Origin: Trypanosoma brucei
Lineage: Eukaryota
Assembly: GCA_000002445.1 (NCBI GenBank)
Contig: CH464491.1
Span: 1,280,001-1,344,000, forward strand
Reading direction: 5' to 3'
Length of the DNA stretch: 64,000 nucleotides
This document shows, piece after piece, positions 15,820 through 64,000 of this stretch (position 1 is its first letter; each line of letters begins with the position of its first letter). The translations under genes were made by a program, and so were the position numbers. The notes beneath the pieces were generated by a model. It saw only the letters and a list, made by a program, of their open reading frames with translations, was not told the origin of the DNA and ran no database searches.

Positions 15820-16474
15820 GACTGAAGGTGCACAGAGACATACGCGTTAATGGATATGACGCTCCTGAATATATGATTACTGTTGAGTCCGTGGCATAAG
15901 CATGGCGAAAGCGTCAGGCACGAGGCTATTTCCGAGCGACGACCGCCTTTCCTCTGTACCATGCCTGGTGAAGAGGGCCGAAGGAAGAGAAGAGATAGGC
16001 ACTGGTGGGCTTGTATATATATATATATATTTATTTATTTATCTATTTAGTCGTTGCTGCAGCTTTTGTTACCGCACGTGGGGATGTATGGATGAATACT
16101 GTGTTTGGCAATGATACCTACACTGAACTCTGTATCAATACTGGAGAAAGTTTTATTTTTCTGCGTCTGTGGTCGTTGGTGGGATTGTGCGTTTGGGGCC
16201 TTTCTACACTTTTTGTTGATGTTTTCTCTCTATATATACCTTGTTCTTTTCGCCTCTTATCCTCTGAAATGGCGTATTCACTTCGGAAAAGAAAAGTGTG
16301 GGGAAAGGAAGTAAAGCAGTCAGAGAAGAGGAAGGGGTCCGCACCCAACCCAAATCGCAGCGGGGCAGTGGCCGACGTGCGTTTTGCAGTGTCGCCGTTA
16401 TTACCTCCACAGGGGCACTGGCAGTTGAACAAAAGGGGTAACAGTTGATCACATTCAGCTTTGGTGTGCAGTGA

Positions 16475-17344: not shown

Positions 17345-18353
17345 GGGTGTGTGTGTGTGTGTGTGGAGGGAAAAGACGTTTATTCGCCATTTCAGGGGGG
17401 GGGGCATTGATGCCTTCTCACAAAATCAAGGTTGGTGAATGCACACCTGATCAAAGGCCATCAACTTTTCCACTTTTGAAATAATACTATCTTATTGATG
17501 TTGTTACTCCTTTGTTTTGTTTTCATGATGTATTCTCTCTTGTGGAACATTTATGTTTATTTTCACTCCTCGTCACTACCATAACATCAGTGCAAACCCA
17601 CATGGACGCCGCATTTGCCCAACAGTGTGGCGAGGTCCGCTCTACAGTGCCTGTGGGATGTCAACTGTTTTACTTGTTAGTCATCGTTTCCGTGATTTGC
17701 TATATTATTCTGTCATTATCACTCTGCTCCTTTTTCTTGCCAACGACATGAAACTTCTATTTGTCCCCTTCACAATCCAGCTTGTCCCCTGACCCCGATA
17801 ATGAGAAGGGAGAGGTCATAAAGTTCATATCATTGCACATTGTCGCGCTCTCCCTTAATTATCCCTTATGGCCTCTTTCTTCTTTCCCCCGTGCTGTCGT
17901 GCTCTCAATCTCTCATTGCAACCGAACTTCGCTTCCTTCCGTTCATTCCTTACTTCTATCGGGGATTAAGCAATAAACCAGAAAACAAATATATTGCAAG
18001 ACTTGGTTGCTCTTATCGGCAGGGGCTGCTACTTTTTGGGATTGCAGCTGTCACAAGGTTCCTTCACCGGTTGTTGTTCATATTACTCCGTAGCATTGTC
18101 GAGAGCTTGTGCTTACGGTGTAGCTTAATTGACGGCCGCGCGCATTAGCAGTTGAAGTAAGAAATTTCTGCCCTTCCCCTTCCCTGCTCACCCCCTTTTT
18201 TTTCTTTCTTGACATTCCACTCACCTTTCCTCGGGTGCACACATTTAAGGAGGAACGTAGGGGAAAAGGTGTGAGCTAGAGTGGACAAACGTCCCCCCCT
18301 TTTTGGCGTGCATCAATCTATTACATAGTGAGCTGGATAACTTTCTCTTGTCC

Positions 18354-18965
18354 ATGTCTGTGAAGACGCTTGCCGCCCCAACAAAGAAGTACAAAATTGT
18401 CCTTTTGGGCGATAGCGGTGTTGGTAAATCATCCCTCGTACAGCGGCTCGCGAAGAATGAGTGGTGCGACAACCAAAACTCAACGGTAGGCGCGTCTTTC
18501 CTCCGGTACGTGTGTACTGTAGGGGATACAGCTGTAAACTTCGATATTTGGGACACTGCCGGTCAGGAACGCTACAAAAGTCTGGCATCCATGTATTACC
18601 GGGGCGCTGCTGCTGCACTTGTGGTGTATGAAATCCCGTCATGGGAAACATTTGAGCGGGCGAAACATTGGGTGCGGGAACTCGCAACTAACTCACCCGA
18701 GACAATTGTCATACTTGTGGGAAATAAAAGCGACCTAAGGGGGACTAGCGGTTGTGTGAGTAGTGAAGAGGCGGCAACATATGCCCGGGAACTCAATTTG
18801 CTGTTCAGTGAAGCGAGTGCAAAAGACGGTAGTGGTGTAAGTGAAGTATTCATGCAGATTGCGCAGCGGCTTGTAGCGTCGAATAATAATAACACTGTTC
18901 ATAGCGGTGGTGTGTTGGGAGGTCAGCCGAATTCCACTAGGCGAAGTTCCGGTTGCTGTGGTTGA
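18354..18965 (+). CDS. RAB5: Rab5-family small GTPase, 203 aa. The Rab5B paralogue is suggested by size and neighbourhood, but I cannot confirm it without a search
   Basis: G1 GDSGVGKSS, switch I STVGASF, G3 WDTAGQERY, Rab5-like YYRGAAAALVVYEI, G4 GNKSD, G5 SAK, C-terminal CC prenylation motif. The ORF-track start at 18303 is TTG; the first ATG is 18354 (MSVKTLAAPTKKYKIVLLGDSGVGKSS). Confidence 0.85.
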   Translation: MSVKTLAAPTKKYKIVLLGDSGVGKSSLVQRLAKNEWCDNQNSTVGASFLRYVCTVGDTAVNFDIWDTAGQERYKSLASMYYRGAAAALVVYEIPSWETFERAKHWVRELATNSPETIVILVGNKSDLRGTSGCVSSEEAATYARELNLLFSEASAKDGSGVSEVFMQIAQRLVASNNNNTVHSGGVLGGQPNSTRRSSGCCG

Positions 18966-21090
18966 AGCACTGCATGTTGTTGATTTCCGTTAGAGTGTTT
19001 TCGAACTCACTCACTCATGAGCGAGTTGAGTGGGTGTGTGAGTTCTTTTTTTTTTCTTTTCATCTGATTTGTTTTCTTTCATGGGAGAGGTGGTTTTCAA
19101 AGAGTGGAAGAAGAAGAAAGGATCGAGGAGGGTGAGGAAATTTCGTTAAGGGTTTTAGCTGTCCGCGTTTGGACCTTACTTTTTTGTTCTCACTCTCTTT
19201 CTTGTTTCACTTTGTTTTTTTCCTTCGTTTTACTGTTAGTTGGTGGTGTATTGTTTGTCGTGAACCTCACCTCTAAGACGCGCGGCATCCTTCTCTTTAC
19301 CTCTCACCACCGCTCGCGGGCTTATCTTTTTCTTGTTTTTTTTGTTTCGAGCCTTCTTGTTCCGCCATCATCATTATTATTGTTGTTATTATTCCCACTT
19401 CTTCCACTAGTGCTTTTACCACTTTCATTGGTTTTTTTTGCGGTGCCGCTAATGCGTTTGGTTCATTACCGTTTCATAACTCATGCCCACATAACACCAA
19501 TGAACTTTTGCCGTTTTGTTGTTGTAAAGAGAGGAAAACAGAAGAAGAAGAAAATGAAAACGTGATGAAGGCTGAAACAAAACAGTGAGAGGCGATGTAC
19601 CACCAGAGGTTGAGAAGGAACAGGAGGAATAGAAACGATAATGTGATGTTGAGGGTAACCGCCACAAGTAGTTATAACTTTTGAGAAGGTAAACATAAAG
19701 AGAAGGGAAGGGATAACAAGAGCTGATTTTCAAGAAAATAAATGCGCTTGTGTGCATGTGTATGTACTGGTGTCCCTCACTCCCTCTCCCTTTCTCTCTC
19801 TTTGTGGAGGTACTTAAGGAATTGGAGTTATAGATACAAATATGAGAGAAGAGGGAGGTAAAAAAAAAAAGAAAGAAACGGCTTTGAATTACCCACGATA
19901 CATGCATTCGTGTTCTGCCGAACTTCGCCTTCTCTTATGTGTTCAATTTCCCCTCGCTTCATTTCCATCCGTTTTGGTTCACTTTGCTTTTTTTTTTCTT
20001 TGTTATGTATAGGTACCGCCTTTAAGTGTTTTTGTGTTTGGGTGCACGGCCATCCTGTGCGATCTGCGAGTTGTTTCTGTTGCATCCGGAGGATGACCGC
20101 GCATTTCAGATTGTTATATTCATCTTTGCTTGTATCTCTCTCTCCCTCTCAAACACGTAAATACATGTATGCCTCCCCCTTTATTAAGATTGTTTTATTC
20201 GTTTCACTGTTACTCTTCCTGTCCGAATACGGTAACTTTAAACTTCTCTTTTTTTTTTCTCAAGAAAGTTCATTTTATGACGCGACAGTGAGACGGGTAC
20301 TCAAACTCTCACAGGTGTGTGCATTTAACATAGGGTTATTTTATATTGTTATGGCGTTTATGTGGTAATTTGTTACAAGTCAGCCGACAACCACTTAGTT
20401 TTAATTGCACGTGTTTGTGTGGGTCCCGGGTTTCAAAAAAGGAATTGCGAATTTTTGCTCCTCCAACATGTGGTTTCCACCAAATGTGTAGCGATACCCA
20501 CATGTTTCGGACGCCAGAGTACTCGGGGGTGTGGGAGTGGTTTCGACCAAAAAAGTGCGACGAGCGGGGGCCAAAGGACGTGCATGTCAGTATGTTTGAA
20601 CTGATGCAACTGATTTCATATTTTCTACCTCAGTGAATATCTTGACTTACGTATTTTCACTCACACTTCTGTCGCCCTCACCAATACATCGTTGCCTTGT
20701 CTTTCGATGATTGAAAGTGTTGGATGGGTTTACTGAAAGGGGCGGCTGATACTTGTCCTTGTGTTGATACTTTTGTGCGATTCAAGAATTCGACCATGTG
20801 GTAGATTCCGGAGGGCACCGCATGAATTTCCCACACCAGTACAAAAATCGGCATCGTTGATGTTTAAATTGTTTGTCTAACGGATTGGCGTTGCGCCTGC
20901 TCACCACCTCCCCTCCCACGTCTGCAAGTAACTCATTTGTGTTTCTGCTCCTGTCTATCCGTTGCTATTTCTCTCCCTTTTTTTTTTCTGTTTCGCTTGC
21001 CTTTGTTACCACCCACTTGGCTTTCCATCTTTCTTTGGATCCTCTTCAAAATGGTCGAACGAAAAGAAAGGAAGTGGGAACCCGCGACTG

Positions 21091-22283: not shown

Positions 22284-22873
22284 TATGCTTGTGTTCAGTT
22301 CTTTACCTTCTCCCTTTTTTTTTCTCTTGTATTTTGTGCTCTTCCTTTTTTTTTTACACTTGCTCTGTATATCATTCAACGAGGTGGTAAAAACGAAAAC
22401 ACACAACAGAGAAAGAAAAGAAAGGAAAGGTGAAAACAATTTCAAGGGAAATCAAGTACAACACACCCTATTACCATCGTTATCATTATTGTTGCTTAAC
22501 ACCGCAAAAAAACAAGAAAAGTGAAAAAAAAAAGACTCTGGCACCTAGGCGGATTTGAAACACCAACAGGAAGATAAGGAAAAGTAAAACAAATACAAAG
22601 GTGGACTACATATTTTTGATTGTGCACGACCGAAAGGATACTGAATCAAACGCCTTTAGGGGAAAAGAAATATAGGGAGACTCAGTGATTTTTAATATAT
22701 ATATATATATATATATTCAAGGAAAAAGGCATAGGTTGAAAGGGGAAAGAAAAAGAAAAGGGTTGGGGACGAAAAAGTTTTTTAAAAAAAAACTAAGACA
22801 AAACAACGAAATAAAACCAGAAGGGTAGTTTTTCCTTTGTTTTCTTTTCTTTTTGTTTTTTTTTCTGGTTTCC

Positions 22874-24373
22874 ATGTCTGAAAAGGGAACATCGTTAAAC
22901 CTATTCCTCGCCGCCTGCCAAAAGGAGGGTGTGAAGCAACCCAACACATTTCTTGTCGAGTTCTTTACGAAAAAACCTGAACTGTCGGAAGTGGAGGAAA
23001 TAGACTTGAGCAAGAACTACATTGGGAACCGTGGTATTCTTGCCTTACTCGATGTAATTAGCGAGCTGCCATGCTTTCGCTTCCTCAACTGCTCAAACCA
23101 AAAACTGTATAACACGGACTTGAATGAGGATAGCGTTAGAGGTAACGCCACAATAGATCGCATCGTCGACGTTTTCAAATCACATCCAACAGCCAACGCA
23201 TTAGATCTCAGCCACAATCCTATTTCAAACTATGCTGGCCGTAGATTATTGTTGCTTACCCAAAATAACAAGCGCATCTGCCGTGTGGAATTGGTGGACA
23301 CTCGCATTGACTTTGAACTCCGCTCTCGCATTACGCAACAATGTGAAAAGAATACCATCGCTATTTGGGAGTCACAAGCACAAGAAAAGGAGGAGGAACG
23401 CGCCTTTGGTGAAAGTGTCACGTGGGTCCCAACACAAACGTCTGCGGACTTGACGGCAATCGGTGGCGGCCGGAAGCGACGTACTACAGTGCGAGGTGAG
23501 GGAATTGATCCTGAGAAGGCTAAATCATATGTTGCACCATATTTCGAGAAGAGTGAAGACGAAACGGCACTCATCTTGAAGTTGTTGACGTATAACGTAC
23601 TCTTCTCCTTTCTGGACTCACGCGATCTTATGACTGTGGCGGGTGCCATGTGGCGTGTGGAGTTCAAGCAGGATGATTGCATTATGGAGGCGGGGCAGAC
23701 AACATGTGACAAACTGTATATAATTCAAGATGGTAAAGCAGATATCATTAAAGAAGGACAGAAGGTATATCTCAAGGTAGAAGGTACGGCGGTAGGAGAG
23801 CTTGAACTTATGTATCAGACACCAACTGTTGCCACGGTGAAAGTTTGCACACCGGAGCTCATCGCATGGGCACTCGATCGCGACACGTATCGTCACCTCG
23901 TGATGGGTAGTGCCATCCGCCGCCGTGAGACATATATTCAATTCCTAACAAATATTCCGTTCCTCAGTGGCCTTGACAATTATGAGAAGCTGCAACTTGC
24001 GGATGCCCTCAGCAGCGACGAGTTTGAACCGGGTGATTACATCATTCGCTACGGAGAGGAGGGCGAATGGCTGTACATCATTTTGGAAGGTTCTGTTGAT
24101 GTGGTTGGGCGGGATGACGATGGAAATGAAAAGCATGTTTGGGAATTCGGGAAGGGGGATCATGTGGGTGAGCTGGAATTCCTTAACAATCACGCCAATG
24201 TAGCAGATGTTGTGGCAAAAACGCATGTTGTCACGGCGAAGCTTAACCGTAGGCACTTTGAAATGTGCCTTGGACCTGTCATTGATGTACTGAAACGAAC
24301 CTCGCAGCAGCCAAACTATGAGTACTACCAGTCGAAACTGAAAACTACTTTAAGGGCAGAGGGGAGGAAGTAG
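22874..24373 (+). CDS. PKAR: cAMP-dependent protein kinase regulatory subunit (PKA-R), kinetoplastid type: N-terminal leucine-rich repeats plus two cyclic-nucleotide-binding domains
   Basis: The ORF-track start is TTG; the ATG at 22874 gives 499 aa (MSEKGTSLNLF...). LRR-like N-terminus (IDLSKNYIGNRGILALL...LDLSHNPISNYAG). Inhibitor-like RRTTV site. Two CNB domains with phosphate-binding cassettes GELELMYQTPTVATV and GELEFLNNHANVADV; both lack the canonical Arg of 'PRAAT'. Confidence 0.9.
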   Translation: MSEKGTSLNLFLAACQKEGVKQPNTFLVEFFTKKPELSEVEEIDLSKNYIGNRGILALLDVISELPCFRFLNCSNQKLYNTDLNEDSVRGNATIDRIVDVFKSHPTANALDLSHNPISNYAGRRLLLLTQNNKRICRVELVDTRIDFELRSRITQQCEKNTIAIWESQAQEKEEERAFGESVTWVPTQTSADLTAIGGGRKRRTTVRGEGIDPEKAKSYVAPYFEKSEDETALILKLLTYNVLFSFLDSRDLMTVAGAMWRVEFKQDDCIMEAGQTTCDKLYIIQDGKADIIKEGQKVYLKVEGTAVGELELMYQTPTVATVKVCTPELIAWALDRDTYRHLVMGSAIRRRETYIQFLTNIPFLSGLDNYEKLQLADALSSDEFEPGDYIIRYGEEGEWLYIILEGSVDVVGRDDDGNEKHVWEFGKGDHVGELEFLNNHANVADVVAKTHVVTAKLNRRHFEMCLGPVIDVLKRTSQQPNYEYYQSKLKTTLRAEGRK

Positions 24374-25940
24374 GTGGCTCGTAAAATATGCATTGGATTG
24401 CTTTTCGTGTTTTTTTTGTTTGTTTTCTTGTTTTTGTTTTCTTTTGGGGAGTATTCGATTGGATTTTTTTTTGGGAGGTGGAGGCTACTGTAGAGAGGAA
24501 GAGTCGTGTAAACAAGAGGAGGAAGCAGGAAGAAATAATAATAATAATAATAGAAGAAGGGAAGGAGAGTGGCTGCAACGGAAGGTAAAGTAAAAAAAAA
24601 AAAGAAGAGAGGGAGGAGAAGAGAGGAGAACAAACAACTTATCCCGTCATTTCTTCTTCTTCTTTTTTGATCTTGCGTTATTGTATGTATATGTATTCCT
24701 GACTTCTGTTGCTTCCTTCATCAATGCAGAAGTTGTCAGTTTCGCAAAGAATGAAGGAAGTAAAAAAAGAAAAGAAAAAAGTTTATTATTATTATTAAAG
24801 AAAAAAAAAGGAGAGATGAATAAAATAGAGGAAGGGAGTATGAATCCCATTTACTGGAGGAGAAAACAAAACGAAGGGGATTAAATGAGATGATGAAATT
24901 GAAAAGTGAGAGTGAGAGTATGAGTGAATGAACTGTTGCGAAGACGTGAGACAACTGGAAGGCGAGAAAGTTGTGTGGGATAATGTTAGAAAAAATAAGG
25001 AAACATATATAGAAAAAAGAAAAGAGAAGAGAAGAGGCAAGGGGTCATGGAGTAATAAAACGAGGGAAAATAGTAATGATAATAATAATAATAATAATAA
25101 AAACAAGATGGGAACATGAAAAACGGTGAAGGCAAATATGAGACTTGTAACTGTACCGAATATGACACCTATTGTTGTTATTATTACTATTGTTGTTATT
25201 TATTTATTTTTTTAAAAAAAAAGGGGGGAAAAAGAAAAAAAAATGAGGGAATAACATTTTGGATTTGCACCAGATCCAGTTTATATGGAAGAACCCCTGC
25301 TGATGGTGGCAAGGCGTATTGTGGACTTGACGCGGCAATTTTTTTTTTTTTACGCGCAACTGCTTCGGTAGAGTAGGACAAAAAGAAAAATTACGCAAAC
25401 AAAATATTTTGGTGATTTCTCTTTTTCCCCTTTTTGGTGTTTATATTTATGTTAAAAGTGTACAGTTATGTGTCTGTAAATTGTGGTATACCGTCACTTC
25501 AGCATTTCCTTCTTGTATAACACACCAACAAAGAAAAAAAAGAAAGGGAAAAAGATTTTTTTTCTAATTTATTCTATTTATATTTTGTTGTTGTTGGTGT
25601 TATTGCGTTAGTAACGGCAGCAATGTGTGGTATTTGAAGGTTTATGTTTCATTTCTGTATGATGATAACATGTGTAACTTTCATTCATTTAATGTTAGGT
25701 CTGCCATGTCGTCTCATTATTATTATTATTATTATCATCATCATCATGTTTTAAAGTTCTCTCGTCCCTCTCGTACTCAACTTTTCGTTTTTGTTTCTTT
25801 GTTATTTTGCCGAGAATAAAGAAAAAATATGTATGTATATATTTATTTATTTAAAAGCAACACCGACCGAACCTATCCTTCCCACAGCTACGCATAAGCA
25901 AAATTCGCAAACAGCACGAACTTTATTTATTTATTTATTT

Positions 25941-25970
25941 GTGTGTGTTTGTGTGTGTGTGTGTGTGTGT
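25941..25970. repeat. (GT)n microsatellite
   Basis: gtgtgtgtttgtgtgtgtgtgtgtgtgtgt. Confidence 0.9.
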
Positions 25971-26372
25971 TTTTTCTCCTCCCTCTTCTTTGTTTATGCC
26001 ATCTGATGTTGTAGTTGTTTTCTTTTCTTTTTTCCTTTTTTTTTTTTGTCAGCATGTGAAGGGAAAAGTTTCATCTCGTGTGTTTCCTTTCATTTGTTTT
26101 TTTTTCTCTCTTGCTTTTGTTCTTCGCTTCCTTCGCCCCATAATTCCGTTTGTTGACTCCTTTCGGCTCCTTCGCTTTTTGTTTTGTTTTATGTTTTATG
26201 TCTTTATATTTATTTGTTTAATGTTTCAATTGCCCTTGTGTTTGTATTTGTGTTTGTGTTTGTGCTCGGGAGGTTCTGTTTTTTTTTTTCCTTTTTGTTG
26301 TTTTTTTTTTTTCCCTCCCCCTTCCCCGCCGTTTGATGTTGTTTTTTCTTCACTCTTGATTTTATTCCTTTC

Positions 26373-26408
26373 CTCTCTCTCTCTCTCTCTCTCTCTCTGT
26401 CTGTCTCT
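26373..26408. repeat. (CT)n then (CTGT)n
   Basis: ctctctctctctctctctctctctctgtctgtctc. Confidence 0.9.
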
Positions 26409-26501
26409 TCACTTGAGCAATTTTTCTTACCTTACCGTTGGATGGACACTTCCTTTTTTTTCTTAAAAAATTACTGTTTGATTTCATTTAATTCTGCACG
26501 C

Positions 26502-26527
26502 GAGGAGGAGGAGGAGGAGGAGGAGGG
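26502..26527. repeat. (GAG)8 trinucleotide repeat
   Basis: gaggaggaggaggaggaggaggagg. Confidence 0.9.
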
Positions 26528-28187
26528 AAGGTGTGTTTTGTTTTATTTGAAAGAAAAAGAGAGGAGAAGAAAAAGAAATTAATTTATTTATTAATTAATT
26601 TATTTATTTACGTATGTGTGCGTTTTGTGTGAAATGGACGTCAAGAGGAGTAATATCCCAAAGCACTTTTCCTCTTCTTTTTTTTTTGTTCCCTCTCTCC
26701 CTCTCTCTCTCTTCTTTGTTTGTTTTTTTGTTTTGTTTGTTTTTTTACTTACTTAAAAAATGAAAATAATGTTTTGAATGAAAAATATCAATATTTTTAT
26801 TCGGGCGTGTCATGCATTGCTAAAACAAAAATAAATACGCCAATAGAGAAGAGGAGGAAGAAAGAAAATGGAATGGAATGGGTTGTGAAAGTCATGTAAT
26901 ATGAAGAAAGAAAAGAAAGAAAAAATAAATAAAAAAATAAAAAAGTGACAAAGGCCGAATATAAATAGAATTAAAAACAATACTGCCACCACCCACCCCA
27001 AAAAAAAAATATATATATATATAAGAAAGAGAAGTACGAGATGCGGATATTAACAAAAAGAAATTAAAGAGATGGGAAAGAGAGAAGGGGGGAAAAAAAA
27101 AAGACAGAGAACAACATGTAAAAATTTTAATTTTGGCGGGGGCGGGGGAAGGGGGGAGGGAAATGCAAAACTGTAATTTCTATTTTAAGAAATAAAATAA
27201 AATAAAATAAGAGAGAGAAAGAGAGAGATGGAAGTGTATTTATATGTGTACGTACCGGTATTAGGAGGAAAGGTGAAGAGCTGTGCGTTATAATGTATGA
27301 ATTTGTTGTTTGAGTGAAGGAATGAAAAAAAAAAAAGATAAATATATAAATAAATTACACATATGATTATAATTATAACAGAATAATAATCAAACAAAAC
27401 AATAATAACACAAAAAAAATAGGAGGAAGAGGAAGTAAAGGAAGGCGGAGGAATGTACAAAAAAAAAGCAGAGAGAAGAAGATAAGATTAAGTTATGCTA
27501 AGTTAAGTTAAGAGGCACATTTTAGAGGAGGAGGAGGAGGATGAGGAAGAAGAAGAAGAAAAACAAGAAACTAAATTGAAAAAAATGTGAGGGAGTAAAG
27601 ACATTGCAGGGGGAGGTGGGAGAAAAAATATATATATATATATATAAGAAAAGGGGGTGAAACAATTTTTTCTTTTAACCATATGAATATGAATATTTAT
27701 TTATATTTATATTTATATTTATATTCATATTTATATTTATATTGTGTATTTGTATTAGTGGTGCCCGGGGGTATCTCGCGGTTGGCGCTTTAAAATCTTG
27801 CATTTTGTTGTCGTGTTGTCTTCTTTTTTTTTTTTCTTTTTTCCTCCTCCCCCCCCTTGCGGTCGCATTATCTGTTCAAATTTTTTTTCATGTGTCTTTT
27901 TGTCGTGTTTGTTTGTTTGTTTGTTTTTTTCTTTACTTCGCTTTATCTTACCTTATCTTATCTTATCTTTTTCTCGTCATGTTTTTTTTTTACTTTGATT
28001 CTCTTCCGTTAATTTTTTTATACTTTTTATTTTCTTCATACTAATATTTGCTGCATGGTACTTCCAATGTCGTTACGCGTTTGATCCACTTTTTTTTTCT
28101 CCCCCCCCCCATCATTCCCCCCTTCTTTTTTTTTTTCATTCTTCTCATTTTCTACACGCACACACGCCTCTTCACTTTTTCTGGTGC

Positions 28188-28211
28188 ATATATATATATA
28201 TATATATATAT
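28188..28211. repeat. (AT)12 microsatellite
   Basis: atatatatatatatatatatatat. Confidence 0.9.
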
Positions 28212-29716
28212 TGTTATTTATTTATATACAAACACAATAAAAAAGCAAACGATGAAAGAATAAGACCGCAGAAGAGATAAACATTTTGTTGTTCAAGGAA
28301 GAAGGGGGTGACAGAAAAAAAAAAAGAAGGAAGCAAGAAGGAAGGAATGAATACAGTTTGTGTCTCTACGTGAAGCGATTATTTCATTTTGTTTTTTTTT
28401 TTAAATTATATTGTTATAACAATAATATAAAAAAAACTTATATCTTGTACCTCTATATTTACACGGACTGTGCACCGAAGTGTGTGGAAAGGAAAGCCCG
28501 CATGCTTAAGGAAGGAGAGGGGTTGTGTGTAGTGACTTTGTGAAGCCCTTTGAGGGAGTTTATTTCACGCCTTATTTTGTGTGTTGCGCTTCTCTGCTTT
28601 AAAAAAAAAAAAAAAAAAGTGGCCTCCCATCTTTTTTTTATTTATTTGTTGTTGTTGTTGTTGTTTTGGTTTTGCCTTCTCTCTCCTTGTTCTCCTTTCT
28701 CAAACAATAATTATTTTTTTTTGCTTTTGTTCTCTCTCCATTCACGTTGCAAATATATTGAAGAAAAGGGGGAATGGGGATGCACAAGTTGTTTTACTGG
28801 ATATCATTATTACAAATTTAAAGTGAAAAAACAAAGATGTCGAAAAAAAAAAAGGGGGACGGAAAAATATTATTATAATAACAATAATACTAATAATAAT
28901 AAATAGTGTACAGAAGTAATAAATAAGCAATCAAAAGGCAAGTTGTTTAAGTGATGCATTTGCTGAGGTGCATTGGCATCTGACTGACGTTTTGAACTTG
29001 TGGAGGATACGCATGCACATGTACACGTGTATGTGTGTGTAAATATATGTATATATGTTTATCAGCGCGTTCTTGTGCTTCCATTCCAAAAGAAAATAAA
29101 AAGGAGGAGGGGTTGCGGGACATCATATAACAATGTTACTGAAAAAAAAATGGAAGGGAAAAGAATATATGAGTGGATGAAAGGGTTATTATTAACAAAC
29201 CCCTGTTGCATTTACTCAGTAGGATACAAACACGTTCATCTGTAGCTGATGTCTGCTGGAAAGGTTTCGGGTGACAGGTCTCGGTGTCGGTATTGGTGCC
29301 ATTGTTTATTTTGTTTTATTGGAATCACGACACGACTGACTCACCACGGAAGTAGGCGTGCGGCGCAGAAATTATTACAGTCCCCCTTCTGACCGTTGGA
29401 TGCTATGAACGCACTCTATTTTACTCTCTCTCTTTCCCTCTTTCTCTCTTTTTCACGTCATCCCCTTTGGTATCGTTATCACTATTATTTATTTTATATT
29501 ATATGCAACTTCTACATTTTTTTTTTCATACCCTTTTTTTCATCTTTCACCCGCACTCAACTGTGATTTCTGTGGAACAACCACAATAACAACAAAATGA
29601 AGGAAACTTCGCATCTCTAAAGGGCAAAGCGGAGTATTTTGAAGAGTGTCAACCAATAAGTAAGTGCAGGCTTCCGTCGTGTCGGAAGCCTTATCTTTTA
29701 CTTATTGCTTGACTCG

Positions 29717-57908: not shown

Positions 57909-59453
57909 ATGGCGAAAAAGGGTAAAAAGAATTCGGCGCCGCAGTTGGTGGCACCGGAGCCGGTGGCAGACGAGCTCGAGGTGGATATCCTGTGGGACGC
58001 CGTCAAAGAAGTAGATGATAAACCTCCTTTCATGGATGGGACACACCTGGACGCCACACGTGCGTTGTTCAAACTGGAGAAAACAGGACGCGGCGCACCG
58101 GATGTTCCGCACAATTTTTTCCAACTTCGGGAAAGAAACCTCAGCGTCGTGCGTGCCCGGGACCGTTTTGTGTTGGCTGAGCAGCGGCTGAAAGAGAGAA
58201 TGGAGGTGGACGAAGGCCTGCAGGACGATGATCAGTGTTTTCTATCACTGAAGCAAAGTGAGGGCGAAGAGTACCTGCGGGAGAGGAGAGCTGCCATGGA
58301 AAACATTGCTGGTGTTAAGTCAGCACTGGTGGAGGACCAACTCGGCTTGATTACACGTATGGAGGAGGCGGCCGAAGACTTCTTCCGAGGCTGGAATGAC
58401 TTATTAGAGGAGGTAACCGCACTCGCCACTGGGGACAGCAAAGTGAGCGCCGCGTTCGAAGAGAAACGAACTCTCACCAAAACGTTTAGGGAAGCGGAGG
58501 AACAGTATTTTCACGACCACGGGGAGCACGTTGTGGGCATCCGAGAAATGCGAAGGGAGACCAAGCGGCAGCAGGATGAAATGCTTCAGTCGATGGTAAC
58601 GCGTCTCGGGGCAGGTGTAGTGGAAATGGCAAGGTTGTCTGTGGAAGAACTAGAGGACAAGGCAGCCCAGCAAGAAGAAACAACGCGGCTTATTTCAGAA
58701 CTCATGAAGGTTCAAGGGAAGTCTACCGTGTTGGAAAAGCAGACAATTGCCATTAATGAGCACCGTGCCACGCTACAACGGTTGATAGATCTGGAGGTGC
58801 AAAAGCAGGAGTTCTGTATCCTGCGTCAGAAACAGATCGAGTCCGATTTGAAAACTCTTTCTGAAACTGTAAAGCACAACAACGAGCAGTTACTTCTCTT
58901 GTCAAGTAACGCCACTCCTTGCCAGGAATACAAAAAGCTGCTGCCGATGATCCCCACTTCTCCCAACACCATTTCCAACCTAACGAATGTGCAGGACAAG
59001 AGCCTGCTGTTGCTGACGGTGGAGGCTAAGCGGCAGCTTGAAGGGCTAGACGCTGAGCTGAAAACTCTGAAAGATGAGCTCGCTACACTTAGGAGGCGCC
59101 ACATTGTGCATCTAAGCGGCAAGTATAAACCAACAGCTACGGATGGGCCCCTAAGTGCCATGAAGAAAACTGCGGAGTTAGGTATCGAGACAACGAGCGC
59201 TATTCGGTCCGCAGTTCTAAACTCTTTGGAGCAGGTGTGCCGTTGCCTTGGATGTACGGAAGATGCAGAAGCACCTGGAGATTCTCTGGAGCGTCTTTTT
59301 TCCATAACAGATGTGGAAGAACGGAAAGCTGTACAATTGTACGTGTCGAGATGTATCAGTAAACTGTTTAGTTCGGAATGCCCTACGGCTTTGCCAGTTC
59401 CATTCCCCAGGAGTTCGAAGGGTATACAATGGGATATGTTGCCTTCACACTGA
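57909..59453 (+). CDS. Coiled-coil hypothetical protein (~514 aa)
   Basis: The ORF-track start at 57642 is TTG; the first in-frame ATG is 57909 (MAKKGKKNSAPQ...), preceded by a poly-T tract and an AG. Extensive heptad and charged-residue periodicity. Confidence 0.7.
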   Translation: MAKKGKKNSAPQLVAPEPVADELEVDILWDAVKEVDDKPPFMDGTHLDATRALFKLEKTGRGAPDVPHNFFQLRERNLSVVRARDRFVLAEQRLKERMEVDEGLQDDDQCFLSLKQSEGEEYLRERRAAMENIAGVKSALVEDQLGLITRMEEAAEDFFRGWNDLLEEVTALATGDSKVSAAFEEKRTLTKTFREAEEQYFHDHGEHVVGIREMRRETKRQQDEMLQSMVTRLGAGVVEMARLSVEELEDKAAQQEETTRLISELMKVQGKSTVLEKQTIAINEHRATLQRLIDLEVQKQEFCILRQKQIESDLKTLSETVKHNNEQLLLLSSNATPCQEYKKLLPMIPTSPNTISNLTNVQDKSLLLLTVEAKRQLEGLDAELKTLKDELATLRRRHIVHLSGKYKPTATDGPLSAMKKTAELGIETTSAIRSAVLNSLEQVCRCLGCTEDAEAPGDSLERLFSITDVEERKAVQLYVSRCISKLFSSECPTALPVPFPRSSKGIQWDMLPSH

Positions 59454-60277: not shown

Positions 60278-61591
60278 ATGAATCGCATACTGTTTGCACT
60301 TGCCATCATCTTTTATTTACCGATTCCCCTCAGCGTCATCAAGGGGAGCTGTAAAGAAATTCCGACCCACCAGCAGCCACAGGCCCCTTACATACCAAAT
60401 ATTCAAAAGCAAACAAAAGAGGTATTGACACCATCGCAACAAGAAGATAAACAGAATTTTTCTCCAACGCTCCACAAAATAGAAAGTGCGCGGCAGTTCC
60501 ACTACGACGACTCAACAAATATCGACGGAAACAAAAGCATTCAGCATCAAACCGCAGTAACAGACGTCAATGACAATAACAGTGCCAACACTTCCAATGA
60601 GGATGAAGAGGAAGATGAAGATGAAGATGATACCGCAGTAACAGACGTCAATGACAATAACAGTGCCAACACTTCCAATGAGGATGAAGAGGAAGATGAA
60701 GATGAAGATGATACCGCAGTAACAGACGTCAATGACAATAACAGTGCCAACACTTCCAATGAGGATGAAGGGGAAGATGAAGATGAAGATGATACCGCAG
60801 TAACAGACGTCAATGACAATAACAGTGCCAACACTTCCAATGAGGATGAAGAGGAAGATGAAGATGAAGATGATACCGCAGTAACAGACGTCAATGACAA
60901 TAACAGTGCCAACACTTCCAATGAGGATGAAGAGGAAGATGAAGATGAAGATGATACCGCAGTAACAGACGTCAATGACAATAACAGTGCCAACACTTCC
61001 AATGAGGATGAAGAGGAAGATGAAGATGAAGATGATACCGCAGTAACAGACGTCAATGACAATAACAGTGCCAACACTTCCAATGAGGATGAAGGGGAAG
61101 ATGAAGATGAAGATGATACCGCAGTAACAGACGTCAATGACAATAACAGTGCCAACACTTCCAATGAGGATGAAGAGGAAGATGAGGATGAAGATGATAC
61201 CGCAGTAACAGACGTCAATGACAATAACAGTGCCAACACTTCCAATGAGGATGAAGAGGAAGATGAGGATGAAGATGATACCGCAGTAACAGACGTCAAT
61301 GACAATAACAGTGCCAACACTTCCAATGAGGATGAAGAGGAAGATGAGGATGAAGATGATACCGCAGTAACAGACGTCAATGACAATAACAGTGCCAACA
61401 CTTCCAATGAGGATGAAGGGAAAGAGGAACTGGAGTTTACCATTGCTCCTTCTCCTGTTTTTTTACCTCCTCCACCGGTAAGTGATGAAAATTCCACTCT
61501 TCTGGATGGGAATGATCTCTCCGTTGACAGGGGTAATTATTGTTCATTGCTATTTTCCTTCGTGTTTGTGTTTCTTACCTTTGTCGTCTAA
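60278..61591 (+). CDS. Predicted secreted/GPI-anchored acidic repeat protein. It has a signal peptide, then ~10.7 x 27-aa repeats (AVTDVNDNNSANTSNEDEEEDEDEDDT), then a hydrophobic C-terminal tail
   Basis: ATG at 60278. N-terminal hydrophobic h-region (MNRILFALAIIFYLPIPLSVIKGSC). 81-bp tandem units from ~60554 to ~61418. C-terminus ...GNYCSLLFSFVFVFLTFVV is typical of a GPI-addition signal. Confidence 0.8.
   Translation: MNRILFALAIIFYLPIPLSVIKGSCKEIPTHQQPQAPYIPNIQKQTKEVLTPSQQEDKQNFSPTLHKIESARQFHYDDSTNIDGNKSIQHQTAVTDVNDNNSANTSNEDEEEDEDEDDTAVTDVNDNNSANTSNEDEEEDEDEDDTAVTDVNDNNSANTSNEDEGEDEDEDDTAVTDVNDNNSANTSNEDEEEDEDEDDTAVTDVNDNNSANTSNEDEEEDEDEDDTAVTDVNDNNSANTSNEDEEEDEDEDDTAVTDVNDNNSANTSNEDEGEDEDEDDTAVTDVNDNNSANTSNEDEEEDEDEDDTAVTDVNDNNSANTSNEDEEEDEDEDDTAVTDVNDNNSANTSNEDEEEDEDEDDTAVTDVNDNNSANTSNEDEGKEELEFTIAPSPVFLPPPPVSDENSTLLDGNDLSVDRGNYCSLLFSFVFVFLTFVV
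60554..61418 (+). repeat. Coding tandem repeat of 81 bp x ~10.7 with a 4-unit higher-order pattern. Units 3, 7 and 11 carry GGG (Gly) instead of GAG. Units 8-10 share a synonymous GAA>GAG
   Basis: Seen directly in the sequence and in the ORF translation. The perfect-repeat mirror ORF on the minus strand (60547..61497, Ser-rich) is an artifact of this array. Confidence 0.9.
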
Positions 61592-61677
61592 CGTTTTATT
61601 TTGCTTTCTTAAACCTTAAATATACTTTTCGATTGTAGTTTTAGTGTTGTTTGGTTATATTCTTTTACATAAAAGAT

Positions 61678-62023
61678 TTTGTTCATTTTATTTTTCACCT
61701 TAGCAGTGAATCTACGAAGTCCTCTTTCGCACATTCCACTGATGTGAACCACACCCTCTCGCACATAATTAGTTATTGATTTAATACTGCATATAAATCT
61801 ATTTTATATTTTTTAAATATTTACTGATGCTTTCTACCAGCCTTGAGGCGCATGCAGTCGCCCAAAAATAAGTGGACATCGCAGTAGATTTATTGTGGAG
61901 TGATATCAATAAGCTTGCGCGTGTGTATATGAGACCCGTTTCCTCTCTTCTTTTTAGTGGTGCTCCTATTTTCCTTGTTTTGGTGTTTGTTTTTTCGTGT
62001 GTGTGTGTGTGATGCTGTTGCAT
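61678..62023 (+). repeat. Direct repeat copy 1 (~346 bp) downstream of the acidic-repeat gene, ending in (GT)n + GATGCTGTTGCAT. Candidate shared 3' UTR or intergenic regulatory element
   Basis: Near-identical to 63426..63784. The only differences are a small (TA) indel near 61806/63553 and the (GT)n length. Confidence 0.85.
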
Positions 62024-62240
62024 GTACGACGCCGCATATTATCCGTATTTTTTAGTTCGGTTTTTGCTCCTGTAGTTTTAATGGTATCGTAACGCTCTGT
62101 ATACATATTCCAAGTTATTCATGCTTATTAATTAAATTGTGTATCGTTTCTTTTTTTTAAAAAAAACCCTTTGTTCTTCTTGACGTTAGGCATATTATTG
62201 TTATAGTAGGGTATAGCCTTTACATTTTCGTCGTGTTAAA

Positions 62241-63059
62241 ATGTTTATCAGTGGGCTGTTCGTGTTGGCCGTGGCTCTGTGCTGCACGAACCCCACAGAT
62301 GGTTGCGACAGCAACTTCACATTGGCTCAAGTGCTGACGCTGTGTCAAATAACAGAACAGCTGAGGGGACTGAAGGAAGTTGTTATGAAAATTGGACCGC
62401 GAGCTGTTGAGGAAGCATTGTTTACTTTGAAGGCGAAGAAACGTAGTGAAGTATCTTTGAGGCGGGCAGAGGAGGCGGCGGAACGGGACCGCAACGCAGG
62501 TTTTGCGGCGGAACGGGCAAGGCTGGCGTATGATAGCGTTTGTGAGGCCGTTGAGTTTGCTGAGTATGCGGCGACAAGCATCGAGGGACGAGCGAGTTCC
62601 CTCCTAGTTATTCAGGAATATTATGTGCCATTCCTGGAAGATGTGATGCTCAGGGTTGGGACGGATGCGGAAGCTGCGGAAGCCCAAGAAGCCGCCATGT
62701 CATGTCTACAAACAAAAAGAAGTGTTTCACCAACGTCACTAAGTGAAGCGGCCTTGGAACTCCGGGTGAGATTAGGGGTCAGAAACTTTAGAGCGTTGAG
62801 GCGCGATCTCCACCGAGCGGCGTTTTGTCTCTATTCGTTGAAAAAGACGGCCGCGAAGATTGCGCTGGCCAGAAGTTCAGTAGAGGAAATAGAGTACCTC
62901 ATAAACGAAGCAGCAAATGAAGCAGAGTGCGTGTCTCCCCCCAAGGGAGGCATACAGGGACAGTTGCCATCGGATGAAAGTGATTCTTCAAATTTGGTCA
63001 CTGTGATTTCGGCCGTCCCGATATGTTGGTTATTGGCCACCATTACGCGTGTTTTGTAA
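62241..63059 (+). CDS. Predicted GPI-anchored, Ala/Glu-rich alpha-helical surface protein (272 aa); possibly BARP/GARP-like. The family assignment is inference
   Basis: ATG at 62241. Signal peptide MFISGLFVLAVALCCTNPTDG. Ala/Glu/Arg-rich helical core. C-terminus DESDSSNLVTVISAVPICWLLATITRVL resembles a GPI-addition signal. The same ~350-bp element lies downstream of both this gene and the preceding surface-protein gene. Confidence 0.75.
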   Translation: MFISGLFVLAVALCCTNPTDGCDSNFTLAQVLTLCQITEQLRGLKEVVMKIGPRAVEEALFTLKAKKRSEVSLRRAEEAAERDRNAGFAAERARLAYDSVCEAVEFAEYAATSIEGRASSLLVIQEYYVPFLEDVMLRVGTDAEAAEAQEAAMSCLQTKRSVSPTSLSEAALELRVRLGVRNFRALRRDLHRAAFCLYSLKKTAAKIALARSSVEEIEYLINEAANEAECVSPPKGGIQGQLPSDESDSSNLVTVISAVPICWLLATITRVL

Positions 63060-63425
63060 CGATATGCCCTCACACGCATGCAGAGGGAATAAATCTGCAG
63101 GCGTAGCACCGTCCATGGTGCAGCGACTTGAGTATAAATGAAGTATGAGCGTGTTGTTTTACGTGCGTAACTTTATGTGAAAAATGTGCACGTGGGGCTG
63201 AGGCATGAATGCACGCATGTTTGCCTCGCGTTCACGCAGTAATGATAGTTTTCGACGTGTGTTGACGACACATTGCCCCTTACCTCCTTTTTTATTTTTT
63301 ATTTCACTTGTTAGCGTCATTACATTCGCAAAAACAGATGTGCAAAGTGTTTTTCATGTAAAATCTGTCTGCCTCCCCTTTACTGCCGTAGATACTGCAC
63401 GCTGTGCAATCGTGTTAACACGTGT

Positions 63426-63784
63426 ATGTTCATTTAATTGCTCCCCTTAGCAGTGAATCTACGAAGTCCTCTTTCGCACATTCCACTGATGTGAACCACA
63501 CCCTCTCGCACATAATTAGTTATTGATTTAATACTGCATATAAATCTATTTTATATATATTTTAAATATTTACTGATGCTTTCTACCAGCCTTGAGGCGC
63601 ATGCAGTCGCCCAAAAATAAGTGGACATCGCAGTAGATTTATTGTGGAGTGATATCAATAAGCTTGCGCGTGTGTATATGAGACCCGTTTCCTCTCTTCT
63701 TTTTAGTGGTGCTCCTATTTTCCTTGTTTTGGTGTTTGTTTCTTCGTGTGTGTGTGTGTGTGTGTGTGTGTGATGCTGTTGCAT
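63426..63784 (+). repeat. Direct repeat copy 2 (~359 bp) of the element at 61678..62023
   Basis: Sequence identity is readable by eye across the whole element, with a longer (GT)n run. Confidence 0.85.
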
Positions 63785-64000
63785 TTACTTGTGCCACCAC
63801 AAACTCCCCAGGCTTTTTTAACACTTATTTATTATAACTGTACCGTAAGGAAGGGGATATGGGCCCGCTGTGAAGCTGGTGCAAATGAGTTGGTTGGAAT
63901 GTAACAACGGATGGTCGGGGGAGGGGGCATATTGGATCCCTTCCTGGTCATCGCCAGCACAAACATCCGCCGAAACACCGCGGAAGAGCCATTGCTGAGG

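What the first reader, a model, noticed from the sequence alone, without database searches (positions are those of the whole stretch)
60278..63784. Two adjacent predicted GPI-anchored surface-protein genes, each followed by the same ~350-bp element
Both gene 60278-61591 (acidic 27-aa repeat protein) and gene 62241-63059 (Ala/Glu-rich helical protein) have an N-terminal signal peptide and a hydrophobic C-terminal GPI-type signal. Each is followed by a near-identical direct repeat (61678-62023 and 63426-63784) that ends in (GT)n-GATGCTGTTGCAT. In trypanosomes, shared 3' flanking sequence between adjacent surface-protein genes (for example the procyclin 3' UTR elements) typically means co-regulated, stage-specific mRNA stability and translation control. 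The second gene has the size and composition of the BARP/GARP family of insect-stage coat proteins. So this may be a small, stage-regulated surface-coat locus embedded in a housekeeping polycistron.
Basis: partly seen in the sequence, partly recalled or inferred. Interest (0 to 1): 0.78.

Follow-up and report, generated by a model that had tools for sequence, protein, structure and literature searches.

The report
Shared 3'UTR repeat, two trypanosome genes
Two already-annotated Trypanosoma brucei surface-protein genes at the end of a transcription unit do share a near-identical 350-base 3' segment, kept alike by gene conversion, but published tsetse-stage RNA data show the two genes are regulated in opposite directions, so it is not a co-regulated coat locus.

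Summary
The window is T. b. brucei TREU927 chromosome 11 (1,280,001-1,344,000).

- **Gene 1** (60278-61591) is Tb11.02.2360, taken here as Tb927.11.4750. It has a signal peptide, 10.9 acidic 27-aa repeats and a GPI-type tail.
- **Gene 2** (62241-63059) is Tb11.02.2370/Tb927.11.4760. It is the published single-copy Fam50 clade 'i' gene, sister to BARP/GARP. Pfam GARP scores 1.6e-56, and the model matches factor H receptor, MISP and GARP.
- **The repeat:** each gene is followed by one copy of a ~350-nt element (61678-62027, 63425-63788), about 98% identical. No other copy occurs in the window or in 10 kb downstream in relatives.
- **In the 3' UTR:** copy 2 lies inside gene 2's mapped 3' UTR, whose poly(A) site is at 63718. 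For copy 1 this is inferred.
- **Concerted evolution:** comparing three Trypanozoon genomes shows the cores of the two copies evolve together, which indicates gene conversion.

Between proventriculus and salivary gland, gene 1 mRNA rises 5-6 fold and gene 2 falls 3-4 fold, in two independent datasets. Expression is modest. The pair ends a polycistron next to an RHS pseudogene and ingi, and no array follows.

Verdict: known genes, plus a small new note on a gene-converted shared 3' UTR. Low interest.

The parts
60278..61591 (+). Gene 1 = Tb11.02.2360 (taken as Tb927.11.4750). A 437-aa acidic protein (D+E+N = 48%) with an N-terminal hydrophobic signal, 25 N-glycosylation sequons and a C-terminal hydrophobic GPI-type tail (aa 421-437).
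   Evidence: Published as a predicted GPI repeat protein, '11 x TAVTDVNDNNSANTSNEDE' (PMC2254594). An orthologue with fewer repeats exists in T. b. equiperdum (P0038, 248 aa). No Pfam hit. The new-style ID is inferred from annotation order and descriptions.
60551..61429 (+). 10.9 tandem copies of an 81-bp (27-aa) unit inside gene 1. Copy number differs between Trypanozoon genomes.
   Evidence: TRF score 1702, 98% matches; for the other genomes.
61678..62027 (+). Repeat copy 1 (R1). It starts 86 nt after the gene 1 stop codon and is inferred to form most of the gene 1 3' UTR.
   Evidence: It contains UA(U)6 at 61807-61814, a 17-nt polypyrimidine tract plus AG at 61939-61957, and (GT)7 at 61997-62011.
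62147..62190 (+). Polypyrimidine tract (62147-62158), AG (62188-62189) and the mapped spliced-leader acceptor site of gene 2 (62190).
   Evidence: Kolev 2010 Table S3 gives the transcript 5' end at chr11 1,342,190.
62241..63059 (+). Gene 2 = Tb11.02.2370/Tb927.11.4760. A 272-aa member of Fam50 clade 'i' (GARP/BARP family): a three-helix-bundle protein with a signal peptide and a GPI-type tail.
   Evidence: Exact match to XP_828552. Pfam GARP 1.6e-56. PMC3605285. AF2 model with pLDDT 79. Foldseek hits 6XZ6, 5VTL and 2Y44.
63060..63424 (+). Gene-specific proximal part of the gene 2 3' UTR. It carries the only UA(U)6 motif of the annotated TREU927 3' UTR (63293-63300) and two short polypyrimidine+AG sites, which are possible internal processing sites.
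   Evidence: Mugo & Clayton 2017: S2 Table gives a 3' UTR of 657 nt with 1 motif and shows the mRNA bound by RBP10; S1 Text lists the 3' UTR at 658 nt. Kolev 'alt 3UTR'.
63425..63788 (+). Repeat copy 2 (R2). Its first 293-294 nt lie inside the mapped gene 2 3' UTR (poly(A) site at 63718). Polypyrimidine tract plus AG at 63688-63706; (GT)13.5 at 63746-63772.

Best explanation
The locus holds the last two protein-coding genes of a Pol II polycistron on T. brucei chromosome 11. The first is a Trypanozoon-restricted acidic-repeat GPI protein (Tb11.02.2360, taken as Tb927.11.4750). The second is the conserved Fam50 clade-'i' three-helix-bundle protein (Tb927.11.4760). The ~350-nt element is a local duplication of 3' UTR/intergenic sequence. 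It forms the distal 3' UTR and poly(A)-site region of gene 2 (shown) and of gene 1 (inferred). Its near-identity is maintained mechanically, by gene conversion between two direct copies 1.75 kb apart. It is not a switch that gives both mRNAs one stage profile, because the two mRNAs change in opposite directions between proventricular and salivary-gland trypanosomes. The element most likely supplies generic 3'-end-formation context (a polypyrimidine tract with AG, and U-rich sequence) and generic AU/U-rich turnover elements. One of these is a UA(U)6 RBP10-type motif present in 5 of the 6 copies examined. Stage specificity is probably set by gene-specific sequence, such as the 365-nt unique proximal 3' UTR of gene 2, which has its own UA(U)6; that mRNA is bound by RBP10. 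Shown: identities, structure, position, concerted evolution and discordant expression. Inferred: that R1 lies in the gene 1 3' UTR, the generic processing/turnover role, and the origin by duplication.
For: Identity and position: exact protein matches to TREU927 chr 11. Kolev 2010 Table S3 maps the gene 2 transcript to 1,342,190-1,343,718, and Table S14 ends the transcription unit at Tb11.02.2370. The Clayton-lab annotation reads 'last ORF at convergence region', with a 657/658-nt 3' UTR. An RHS P-loop pseudogene on the minus strand and ingi RT/RNase H ORFs lie downstream in T. b. equiperdum.
Repeat: two copies only, in the window and in each of L001, L003 and L004. There is no homology in the flanks or between the two proteins.
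Gene conversion: in the six-copy alignment, three substitutions (cols 77, 170, 342) and a TC indel are shared by both copies within a genome but differ between TREU927 and gambiense/equiperdum. Copy-specific sites shared by TREU927 and the other two genomes occur only at the edges (cols 30-38 and 385). Paralogue distance (2-3 of 300) is no greater than orthologue distance (4-5 of 300).
Discordant expression: Savage 2016 and Naguleswaran 2021 supplements. Naguleswaran 2018 lists gene 1 as stumpy-enriched. Gene 2 is marked 'UP PC/BS polys' and is RBP10-bound 4.4-4.6 fold.
Precedent: MISP paralogues whose UTRs and intergenic sequence are >99.7% conserved are still expressed differently (PMC10089363).
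Against: - No poly(A) site for gene 1 could be retrieved, so the claim that R1 lies inside the gene 1 mRNA rests on geometry. R1 begins 86 nt after the stop codon, and the next splice acceptor is at 62190.
- RNA levels say nothing about translation, so a shared translational or localisation role is not excluded.
- The two tsetse datasets disagree on gene 1 in midgut versus proventriculus, and the gene 1 changes in Savage 2016 are not formally significant (q 0.08-0.12).
- Genome-wide copy number of the element could not be checked, because no T. brucei genome search is available here.
- Gene conversion explains the identity but does not rule out selection for it.
Confidence: 0.55

Rival explanations
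1. The shared element is a procyclin-like 3' UTR control module that co-regulates two stage-specific coat proteins, making this a small stage-regulated surface-coat locus.
For: Both products are predicted signal-peptide/GPI surface proteins. Gene 2 belongs to the insect-stage Fam50 family. The element lies in the mapped gene 2 3' UTR. A UA(U)6 motif sits at the same position in 5 of 6 copies. Both mRNAs appear among changed transcripts in the bloodstream and procyclic data (gene 1 is stumpy-enriched; for gene 2 the stage pair was not checked).
Against: The mRNA changes from PV to SG are reciprocal in two independent datasets (gene 1 x4.9 and x6.1; gene 2 x0.35 and x0.27). Abundance is far below coat genes: EP procyclin reaches up to 49,682 RPKM in the same dataset, and BARP is up 87-fold in SG over MG. 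The RBP10 pull-down lists gene 2 only, in the stored parts of the tables. There is no array.
Confidence: 0.08
2. The element is itself a small transcription product: a spliced-leader-capped, polyadenylated 'UTR-derived' RNA, non-coding or encoding a micropeptide, present in two gene-converted copies.
For: Kolev 2010 lists Tb11.02.2370 as 'alt 3UTR'. [quoted passage not shown] Polypyrimidine+AG sites at 63283-63314 and 63372-63391 lie just upstream of R2, and the poly(A) site at 63718 lies inside it. The core is homogenised while the edges have diverged.
Against: The position of the internal processing site was not retrievable. The predicted RNA fold is no better than shuffles (z = -0.44). There is no Rfam match. 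Only tiny ORFs lie on the + strand (read). Gene 1 is absent from Kolev's Table S3, so R1 has no evidence of this kind.
Confidence: 0.1
3. The element is a copy of a dispersed or mobile repeat, related for example to the RHS/ingi/RIME neighbourhood, rather than a local duplication.
For: The locus directly abuts an RHS pseudogene and an ingi element. These regions are recombination- and insertion-prone in T. brucei (established knowledge).
Against: There are no further copies in the 64-kb window or in about 150 kb of fetched trypanosome loci, including the ingi 5' 4.8 kb in L001. The element has no terminal poly(A), target-site duplication or inverted repeats. Both copies are in the same orientation, at equivalent positions after a CDS.
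Confidence: 0.07
4. The direct repeats matter mainly as recombination substrates. Unequal crossing-over or single-strand annealing between R1 and R2 would delete or amplify the Fam50 gene, giving copy-number plasticity typical of trypanosome surface-gene families.
For: The two copies are direct, 1.75 kb apart, and exactly bracket gene 2. Gene conversion between them demonstrably occurs. Other Fam50 subfamilies are tandem arrays (PMC3605285).
Against: Gene 2 is single-copy and intact in all three Trypanozoon genomes examined, and single-copy according to Jackson 2013. Nothing indicates that such events are selected.
Confidence: 0.1

Closest known systems
Fam50 (BARP/GARP/CESP/MISP/FHR) three-helix-bundle GPI surface proteins of African trypanosomes, specifically clade 'i' of Jackson et al. 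2013
   Same: Gene 2 is the very gene named in that paper (Tb11.02.2370). Pfam GARP covers 2-190 of 193 model positions. The predicted fold superposes on FHR (6XZ6, TM 0.85, rmsd 2.1 A), MISP360 (5VTL) and GARP (2Y44). It has a signal peptide and a GPI-type tail.
   Different: It is single-copy, not an array. mRNA is highest in midgut/proventriculus and falls in salivary glands, unlike BARP and MISP. No ligand or function is known. Only five detectable relatives were found in 1.84 billion representative proteins.
Procyclin (EP/GPEET) genes and their 3' UTR control elements
   Same: Gene 1 has the same architecture as a procyclin: signal peptide, acidic tandem repeats and a GPI signal.
   Different: There is no sequence homology to procyclins. 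The genes are Pol II-transcribed at the end of a polycistron, not in a Pol I unit. Expression is 100-1000 times lower. The two genes sharing the element are not co-expressed. The element was not compared with the procyclin 16-mer and 26-mer here.
RBP10 regulon (UA(U)6-containing 3' UTRs repressed in bloodstream and metacyclic forms; Mugo & Clayton 2017)
   Same: Gene 2 mRNA was pulled down with RBP10 4.4-4.6 fold. It has a UA(U)6 motif, is higher on procyclic polysomes, and falls in salivary glands where metacyclics express RBP10. The repeat also carries UA(U)6 in 5 of 6 copies.
   Different: In TREU927 the motif counted for gene 2 lies in the unique part of the 3' UTR, not in the repeat. Gene 1 has the motif in R1 but rises in salivary glands, and it was not found in the stored parts of the RBP10 tables.
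Concerted evolution of UTR/intergenic sequence in trypanosome tandem gene arrays (for example the MISP array, >99.7% UTR/intergenic sequence conservation)
   Same: Flanking non-coding sequence is homogenised between neighbouring transcription-unit members, and identical UTRs do not guarantee identical expression.
   Different: Here the two genes flanked by the homogenised segment are not homologous to each other, and only a sharply bounded 350-nt block is shared.

Membership tests
Fam50 / Pfam GARP (PF16731) - gene 2 | Sequence match to the GARP family profile above the curated threshold | tested here: met
   E = 1.6e-56, 191 bits against a cutoff of 27.4, covering profile positions 2-190 of 193. 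Named as Fam50 clade 'i' in PMC3605285.
Fam50 / Pfam GARP (PF16731) - gene 2 | Elongated three-helix-bundle fold | tested here: met
   AF2 with a 5-sequence alignment: pLDDT 79, pTM 0.70, long helices at 28-82, 84-142 and 184-231. Foldseek: 6XZ6 E 5e-9 TM 0.85; 5VTL TM 0.78; 2Y44 TM 0.81; HpHbR structures also match. A single-sequence model was unreliable.
Fam50 / Pfam GARP (PF16731) - gene 2 | N-terminal signal peptide and C-terminal GPI-addition signal | tested here: inconclusive
   Hydrophobic N- and C-termini and no internal TM segment. SignalP values reproduced in PMC5176191 are positive. No GPI predictor was available. The tail DSSNLVTVISAVPICWLLATITRVL carries the VTxxS-like motif noted by Jackson 2013.
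Fam50 / Pfam GARP (PF16731) - gene 2 | Insect-stage-biased expression | tested here: met
   From literature supplements: MG 153, PV 99, SG 35 RPKM; PV 79, SG 21; 'UP PC/BS polys'. It is not salivary-gland-specific, unlike BARP and MISP.
Fam50 / Pfam GARP - gene 1 | Any sequence similarity to the family | tested here: not met
   No Pfam hit. BLASTP of gene 1 against gene 2 gives E = 8.8. The only homologue found is the T. b. equiperdum orthologue.
Procyclin-type co-regulated 3' UTR module (both genes) | Genes sharing the element show the same stage-specific mRNA profile | tested here: not met
   Changes from PV to SG are opposite in two datasets.
Procyclin-type co-regulated 3' UTR module (both genes) | The element lies within the mature 3' UTR of both mRNAs | tested here: inconclusive
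   Met for gene 2 (poly(A) site at 63718; 658-nt annotated UTR). For gene 1 there is only positional inference.
Procyclin-type co-regulated 3' UTR module (both genes) | The element confers regulation on a reporter | not testable with these tools
   This needs transfection experiments.
RBP10 target mRNAs | Physical association with RBP10 and a UA(U)6 motif in the 3' UTR | tested here: met
   For gene 2 only: eluate/unbound ratios of 4.39 and 4.58, with 1 motif. Gene 1 was not found in the stored (truncated) tables.

The most novel reading that the evidence does not exclude
The 350-nt block is not just a duplicated UTR. It would be a functional unit that selection keeps identical through gene conversion, in one of two forms. 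Either it is a discrete SL-capped, polyadenylated UTR-derived RNA made from both copies, or it is a shared translational or 3'-end-processing module for surface-protein mRNAs at the terminus of a transcription unit. Such a unit would act independently of steady-state mRNA level.
Probability: 0.12. Interest if true: 0.5.

Novelty: new member of a known kind. Interest (0 to 1): 0.22.

Why it matters
Mostly it does not. Both genes are annotated, and both have been flagged in the literature as candidate surface proteins, gene 1 in 2007 and gene 2 in 2013. Their stage expression is in public datasets.

Two small points may be useful to trypanosome biologists:
1. A sharply bounded 3' UTR block shared by two non-homologous neighbouring genes evolves in concert yet goes with opposite expression profiles. 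This is a clean natural example that shared 3' UTR sequence does not by itself predict co-regulation. It also suggests the gene-specific proximal UTR (RBP10-bound for gene 2) carries the information.
2. Gene 1 is a heavily N-glycosylatable acidic repeat protein. It ranks among the 200 most abundant salivary-gland transcripts in one dataset, varies in repeat number, and shows only non-synonymous differences between subspecies. It may merit testing as a tsetse-stage surface antigen.

Tried and rejected
- **Exact-sequence look-up of ORFs inside the repeat**, used as a proxy for counting copies in other assemblies: none are in the collection.
- **T. congolense syntenic locus:** the orthologue of the 514-aa neighbour has no contig on record. 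Whether gene 1 or the duplication exists there is therefore unknown.
- **Look-up of gene 2 in TREU927:** not on record. T. b. equiperdum and T. b. gambiense loci were used instead.
- **T. vivax, T. cruzi and T. theileri loci downstream of the conserved 514-aa gene:** no gene 1, gene 2 or repeat. Synteny breaks exactly here.
- **Homology between gene 1 and gene 2:** none.
- **Homology between their 5' flanks, or beyond the repeat edges:** none above shuffles.
- **RNA structure of the element:** z = -0.44.
- **Rfam:** only sub-threshold noise.
- **Single-sequence AF2 of gene 2:** pLDDT 49, discarded.
- **Word-indexed homologue search:** found only Trypanozoon orthologues for both genes.
- **Single-cell supplement of Howick 2022:** lists neither gene.
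- **Siegel 2010:** no stored supplements.
- **Stage pair for the 2.9-fold change of Tb927.11.4760 in Naguleswaran 2018** was not resolved, because supplement look-ups were exhausted.


Full report
**1. What is in the sequence**

The region holds two + strand ORFs, 60278-61591 (437 aa) and 62241-63059 (272 aa). Gene 1 contains 10.9 tandem copies of an 81-bp unit at 60551-61429, with 98% matches.

A direct repeat follows each gene, at 61678-62027 and 63425-63788. Aligned, the two copies differ by a 2-bp indel, two substitutions in the core, a few at the left edge, and six extra GT units. Both end in (GT)n-GATGCTGTTGCAT.

Probes from the element match exactly twice in the window, against zero expected. 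It is the only dispersed repeat of 60 nt or more in 64 kb.

**2. Identity of the window and genes**

Eight proteins of the window match Trypanosoma brucei brucei TREU927 chromosome 11 entries exactly. They include prostaglandin F synthase (Tb927.11.4700), kinesin-13 and SURF1.

Kolev 2010 Table S3 gives the Tb11.02.2370 CDS at 1,342,241-1,343,059. The window is therefore chr11 1,280,001-1,344,000.

- **Gene 2** is Tb11.02.2370, XP_828552. The ID Tb927.11.4760 is confirmed by its 3' UTR sequence as printed in Mugo & Clayton S1 Text.
- **Gene 1** is Tb11.02.2360. It was listed in 2007 as a predicted GPI-anchored protein with '11 x TAVTDVNDNNSANTSNEDE' (PMC2254594). I take it to be Tb927.11.4750, from annotation order and description. 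That mapping is inferred.

**3. The proteins**

Gene 2:
- It hits Pfam GARP at E = 1.6e-56.
- Jackson et al. 2013 name it as the single-copy chromosome-11 clade 'i' of Fam50, sister to BARP/GARP.
- With a five-sequence alignment, AlphaFold gives pLDDT 79 and pTM 0.70, with three long helices.
- Foldseek's best PDB matches are all trypanosome three-helix-bundle surface proteins:
  - the T. brucei factor H receptor (6XZ6, TM 0.85, rmsd 2.1 A);
  - MISP360 (5VTL);
  - T. congolense GARP (2Y44);
  - the haptoglobin-haemoglobin receptors.
- An exhaustive profile-free search finds only five relatives. One is a 267-aa protein at 42% identity, probably the T. congolense orthologue. Another is a 470-aa protein with two GARP domains.

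Gene 1:
- It has no Pfam hit, no similarity to gene 2, and only a Trypanozoon orthologue.
- It is 48% D+E+N and has 25 N-glycosylation sequons.

Both proteins have a hydrophobic N-terminus and a hydrophobic stretch ending at the C-terminus. The SignalP values reproduced in Savage 2016 are positive for gene 2.

**4. Genomic context**

All large ORFs in the window are on the + strand, but the pair is not embedded in the polycistron.

- Kolev's Table S14 ends the transcription unit at Tb11.02.2370 and starts the next one at Tb11.02.2390.
- The Clayton-lab table annotates Tb927.11.4760 as 'last ORF at convergence region'.
- Tb927.11.4770 is an RHS pseudogene.
- In T. b. equiperdum, RHS P-loop fragments lie on the minus strand 2.6 kb downstream of gene 2, followed by ingi RT/RNase H ORFs.

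The arrangement gene1-R-gene2-R is conserved in T. b. gambiense and T. b. equiperdum. Exactly two R copies are present, and there is no further gene 1-like or gene 2-like sequence within 10 kb downstream. The locus therefore does not continue as an array.

In T. vivax, T. cruzi and T. theileri, the conserved block (DNA polymerase, aldo-keto reductase, and so on, up to the 514-aa gene) is followed by unrelated genes. None of them has gene 1, gene 2 or R. The pair sits at a synteny break.

**5. Is the repeat in the mRNAs?**

- **Gene 2:** the transcript is mapped from 62190 to 63718. TriTrypDB's 3' UTR is 658 nt and starts at 63060. The first 293-294 nt of R2 are therefore in the 3' UTR.
- **Internal processing:** Kolev classes the gene as 'alt 3UTR'. 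By the table's own criteria, that means SL and poly(A) reads mark a UTR-derived transcript. The internal site could not be retrieved.
- **Gene 1:** no mapping was retrievable. R1 starts 86 nt after the stop codon and ends 163 nt before the gene 2 splice acceptor, so it is very probably 3' UTR. This is an inference.

Each copy contains a 17-nt polypyrimidine tract followed by AG. Five of the six copies across three genomes carry a UA(U)6 motif at the same position, and TREU927 R2 has lost it.

The element has no unusual RNA structure (z = -0.44) and no Rfam match.

**6. How the copies stay alike**

I aligned the six copies from TREU927, gambiense and equiperdum.

- Three substitutions and one TC indel are shared by both copies within a genome but differ between TREU927 and the other two genomes.
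- Sites that are copy-specific across genomes occur only at the edges of the block.
- Paralogues differ at 2-3 of 300 core positions, and orthologues at 4-5.

This is the signature of gene conversion over a tract of about 345 nt. No residual homology extends beyond the block.

**7. Are the genes co-regulated?**

No, at the RNA level. Values below are from the paper supplements.

| Dataset | Gene 1 (MG / PV / SG) | Gene 2 (MG / PV / SG) |
|---|---|---|
| Savage 2016 (RPKM) | 37.8 / 126.2 / 616.8 | 153.1 / 99.0 / 34.8 |
| Naguleswaran 2021 (RPM) | 169.5 / 22.4 / 136 | not retrieved / 79.5 / 21.4 |

- In Savage 2016, gene 1 is in the top-200 list for salivary gland. The SG/PV ratio for gene 2 is 0.35 (q = 0.017).
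- In Naguleswaran 2021, the PV to SG changes have padj 0.0013 for gene 1 and 0.004 for gene 2.
- In culture forms, gene 1 is listed as stumpy-enriched: 55, 139, 48 and 50 RPM in slender, stumpy, early and late procyclic forms.
- Gene 2 is higher on procyclic than bloodstream polysomes, and its mRNA is bound by RBP10 4.4-4.6 fold.

Both tsetse datasets therefore agree on opposite PV to SG changes.

Abundances are far below procyclin (up to 49,682 RPKM). The MISP array offers a published precedent: its UTR and intergenic sequence is >99.7% conserved, yet its paralogues differ in expression.

**8. Interpretation**

- **Best explanation:** R is a local 3' UTR/intergenic duplication homogenised by gene conversion. 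It provides distal UTR and 3'-end-formation context, while gene-specific sequence sets the stage profile.
- **Rivals** (the four alternatives scored separately in this report), all judged unlikely on present evidence:
  - an independent UTR-derived RNA;
  - a dispersed or mobile repeat;
  - a recombination substrate.
- **Limits:** none of the rivals is fully excluded. The T. brucei genome could not be searched for further copies, and there are no protein-level data.

**9. Side observations on selection**

Between TREU927 and gambiense/equiperdum, the unique parts of gene 1 show 0 synonymous and 6 non-synonymous differences in 148 codons. Gene 2 shows 5 synonymous and 2 non-synonymous in 272 codons. 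The numbers are small, but they suggest gene 1 is fast-evolving or under relaxed constraint, while gene 2 is under purifying selection.

**10. Verdict**

The genes and their family assignment are already known. The co-regulated-coat interpretation is not supported. The only new element is the gene-converted shared 3' UTR block between two non-homologous genes, which is of modest interest.

Noticed in passing
window 22853-29440: The ORF at 22853-24373 has two cNMP-binding domains and corresponds to Tb11.02.2210, the PKA regulatory subunit. Kolev 2010 maps its transcript to chr11 1,302,384-1,309,440, which implies a ~5-kb 3' UTR with alternative processing. That coincides with the AT-rich (GC 0.31-0.37), microsatellite-dense stretch at 24-30 kb.
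   Followed up: partly
window 60551-61429; L001 8590-9336; L003 12374-14583: The repeat array of gene 1 varies in length between genomes: 437 aa in TREU927, 248 aa in T. b. equiperdum, and more than 20 units including shortened variants in T. b. gambiense DAL972. In DAL972 the reading frame is broken in the assembly, and only the 3' 354 aa are called as a gene.
   Followed up: partly
window 60278-60550 and 61418-61588 versus L001/L003: The unique parts of gene 1 differ from gambiense/equiperdum by 6 non-synonymous and 0 synonymous changes in 148 codons. Gene 2 shows 2 non-synonymous and 5 synonymous in 272 codons. This may reflect diversifying or relaxed selection on gene 1.
   Followed up: partly
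window 63562-63569 (R2) versus 61807-61814 (R1): The UA(U)6 (RBP10-type) motif is present in R1 and in both copies of gambiense and equiperdum. In TREU927 R2 it is destroyed by a T-to-A change. Only 10 TATTTTTT occurrences exist on the + strand of the whole window.
   Followed up: yes
L001 13435-14234 (minus strand) and 15981-19916: Downstream of gene 2 in T. b. equiperdum lie RHS P-loop pseudogene fragments on the opposite strand and an ingi-type retroelement (endonuclease/RT and RNase H ORFs). This marks the end of the transcription unit. Tb927.11.4770 RNA rises 9-fold from PV to SG in Naguleswaran 2021.
   Followed up: partly
L005 12553-13866: In T. vivax, the position after the conserved 514-aa gene holds an uncalled 437-aa multi-pass membrane ORF. 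About 5 kb further on there is a convergent strand switch. There is no Fam50 gene here, so the T. vivax Fam50 clade-'i' candidate named by Jackson 2013 is not syntenic with this site.
   Followed up: no
P0040: A 470-aa relative of gene 2 carries two tandem GARP domains plus signal and GPI-type ends, which makes it a duplicated-domain Fam50 protein. Its species of origin is not shown by the tool.
   Followed up: no
window 57909-59453; L008: The conserved 514-aa upstream neighbour is labelled 'paraflagellar rod ...' in one source. Its T. theileri orthologue is labelled 'putative glutamic acid/alanine-rich protein'. It has no GARP Pfam match, so that name appears to reflect composition, not homology.
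   Followed up: partly
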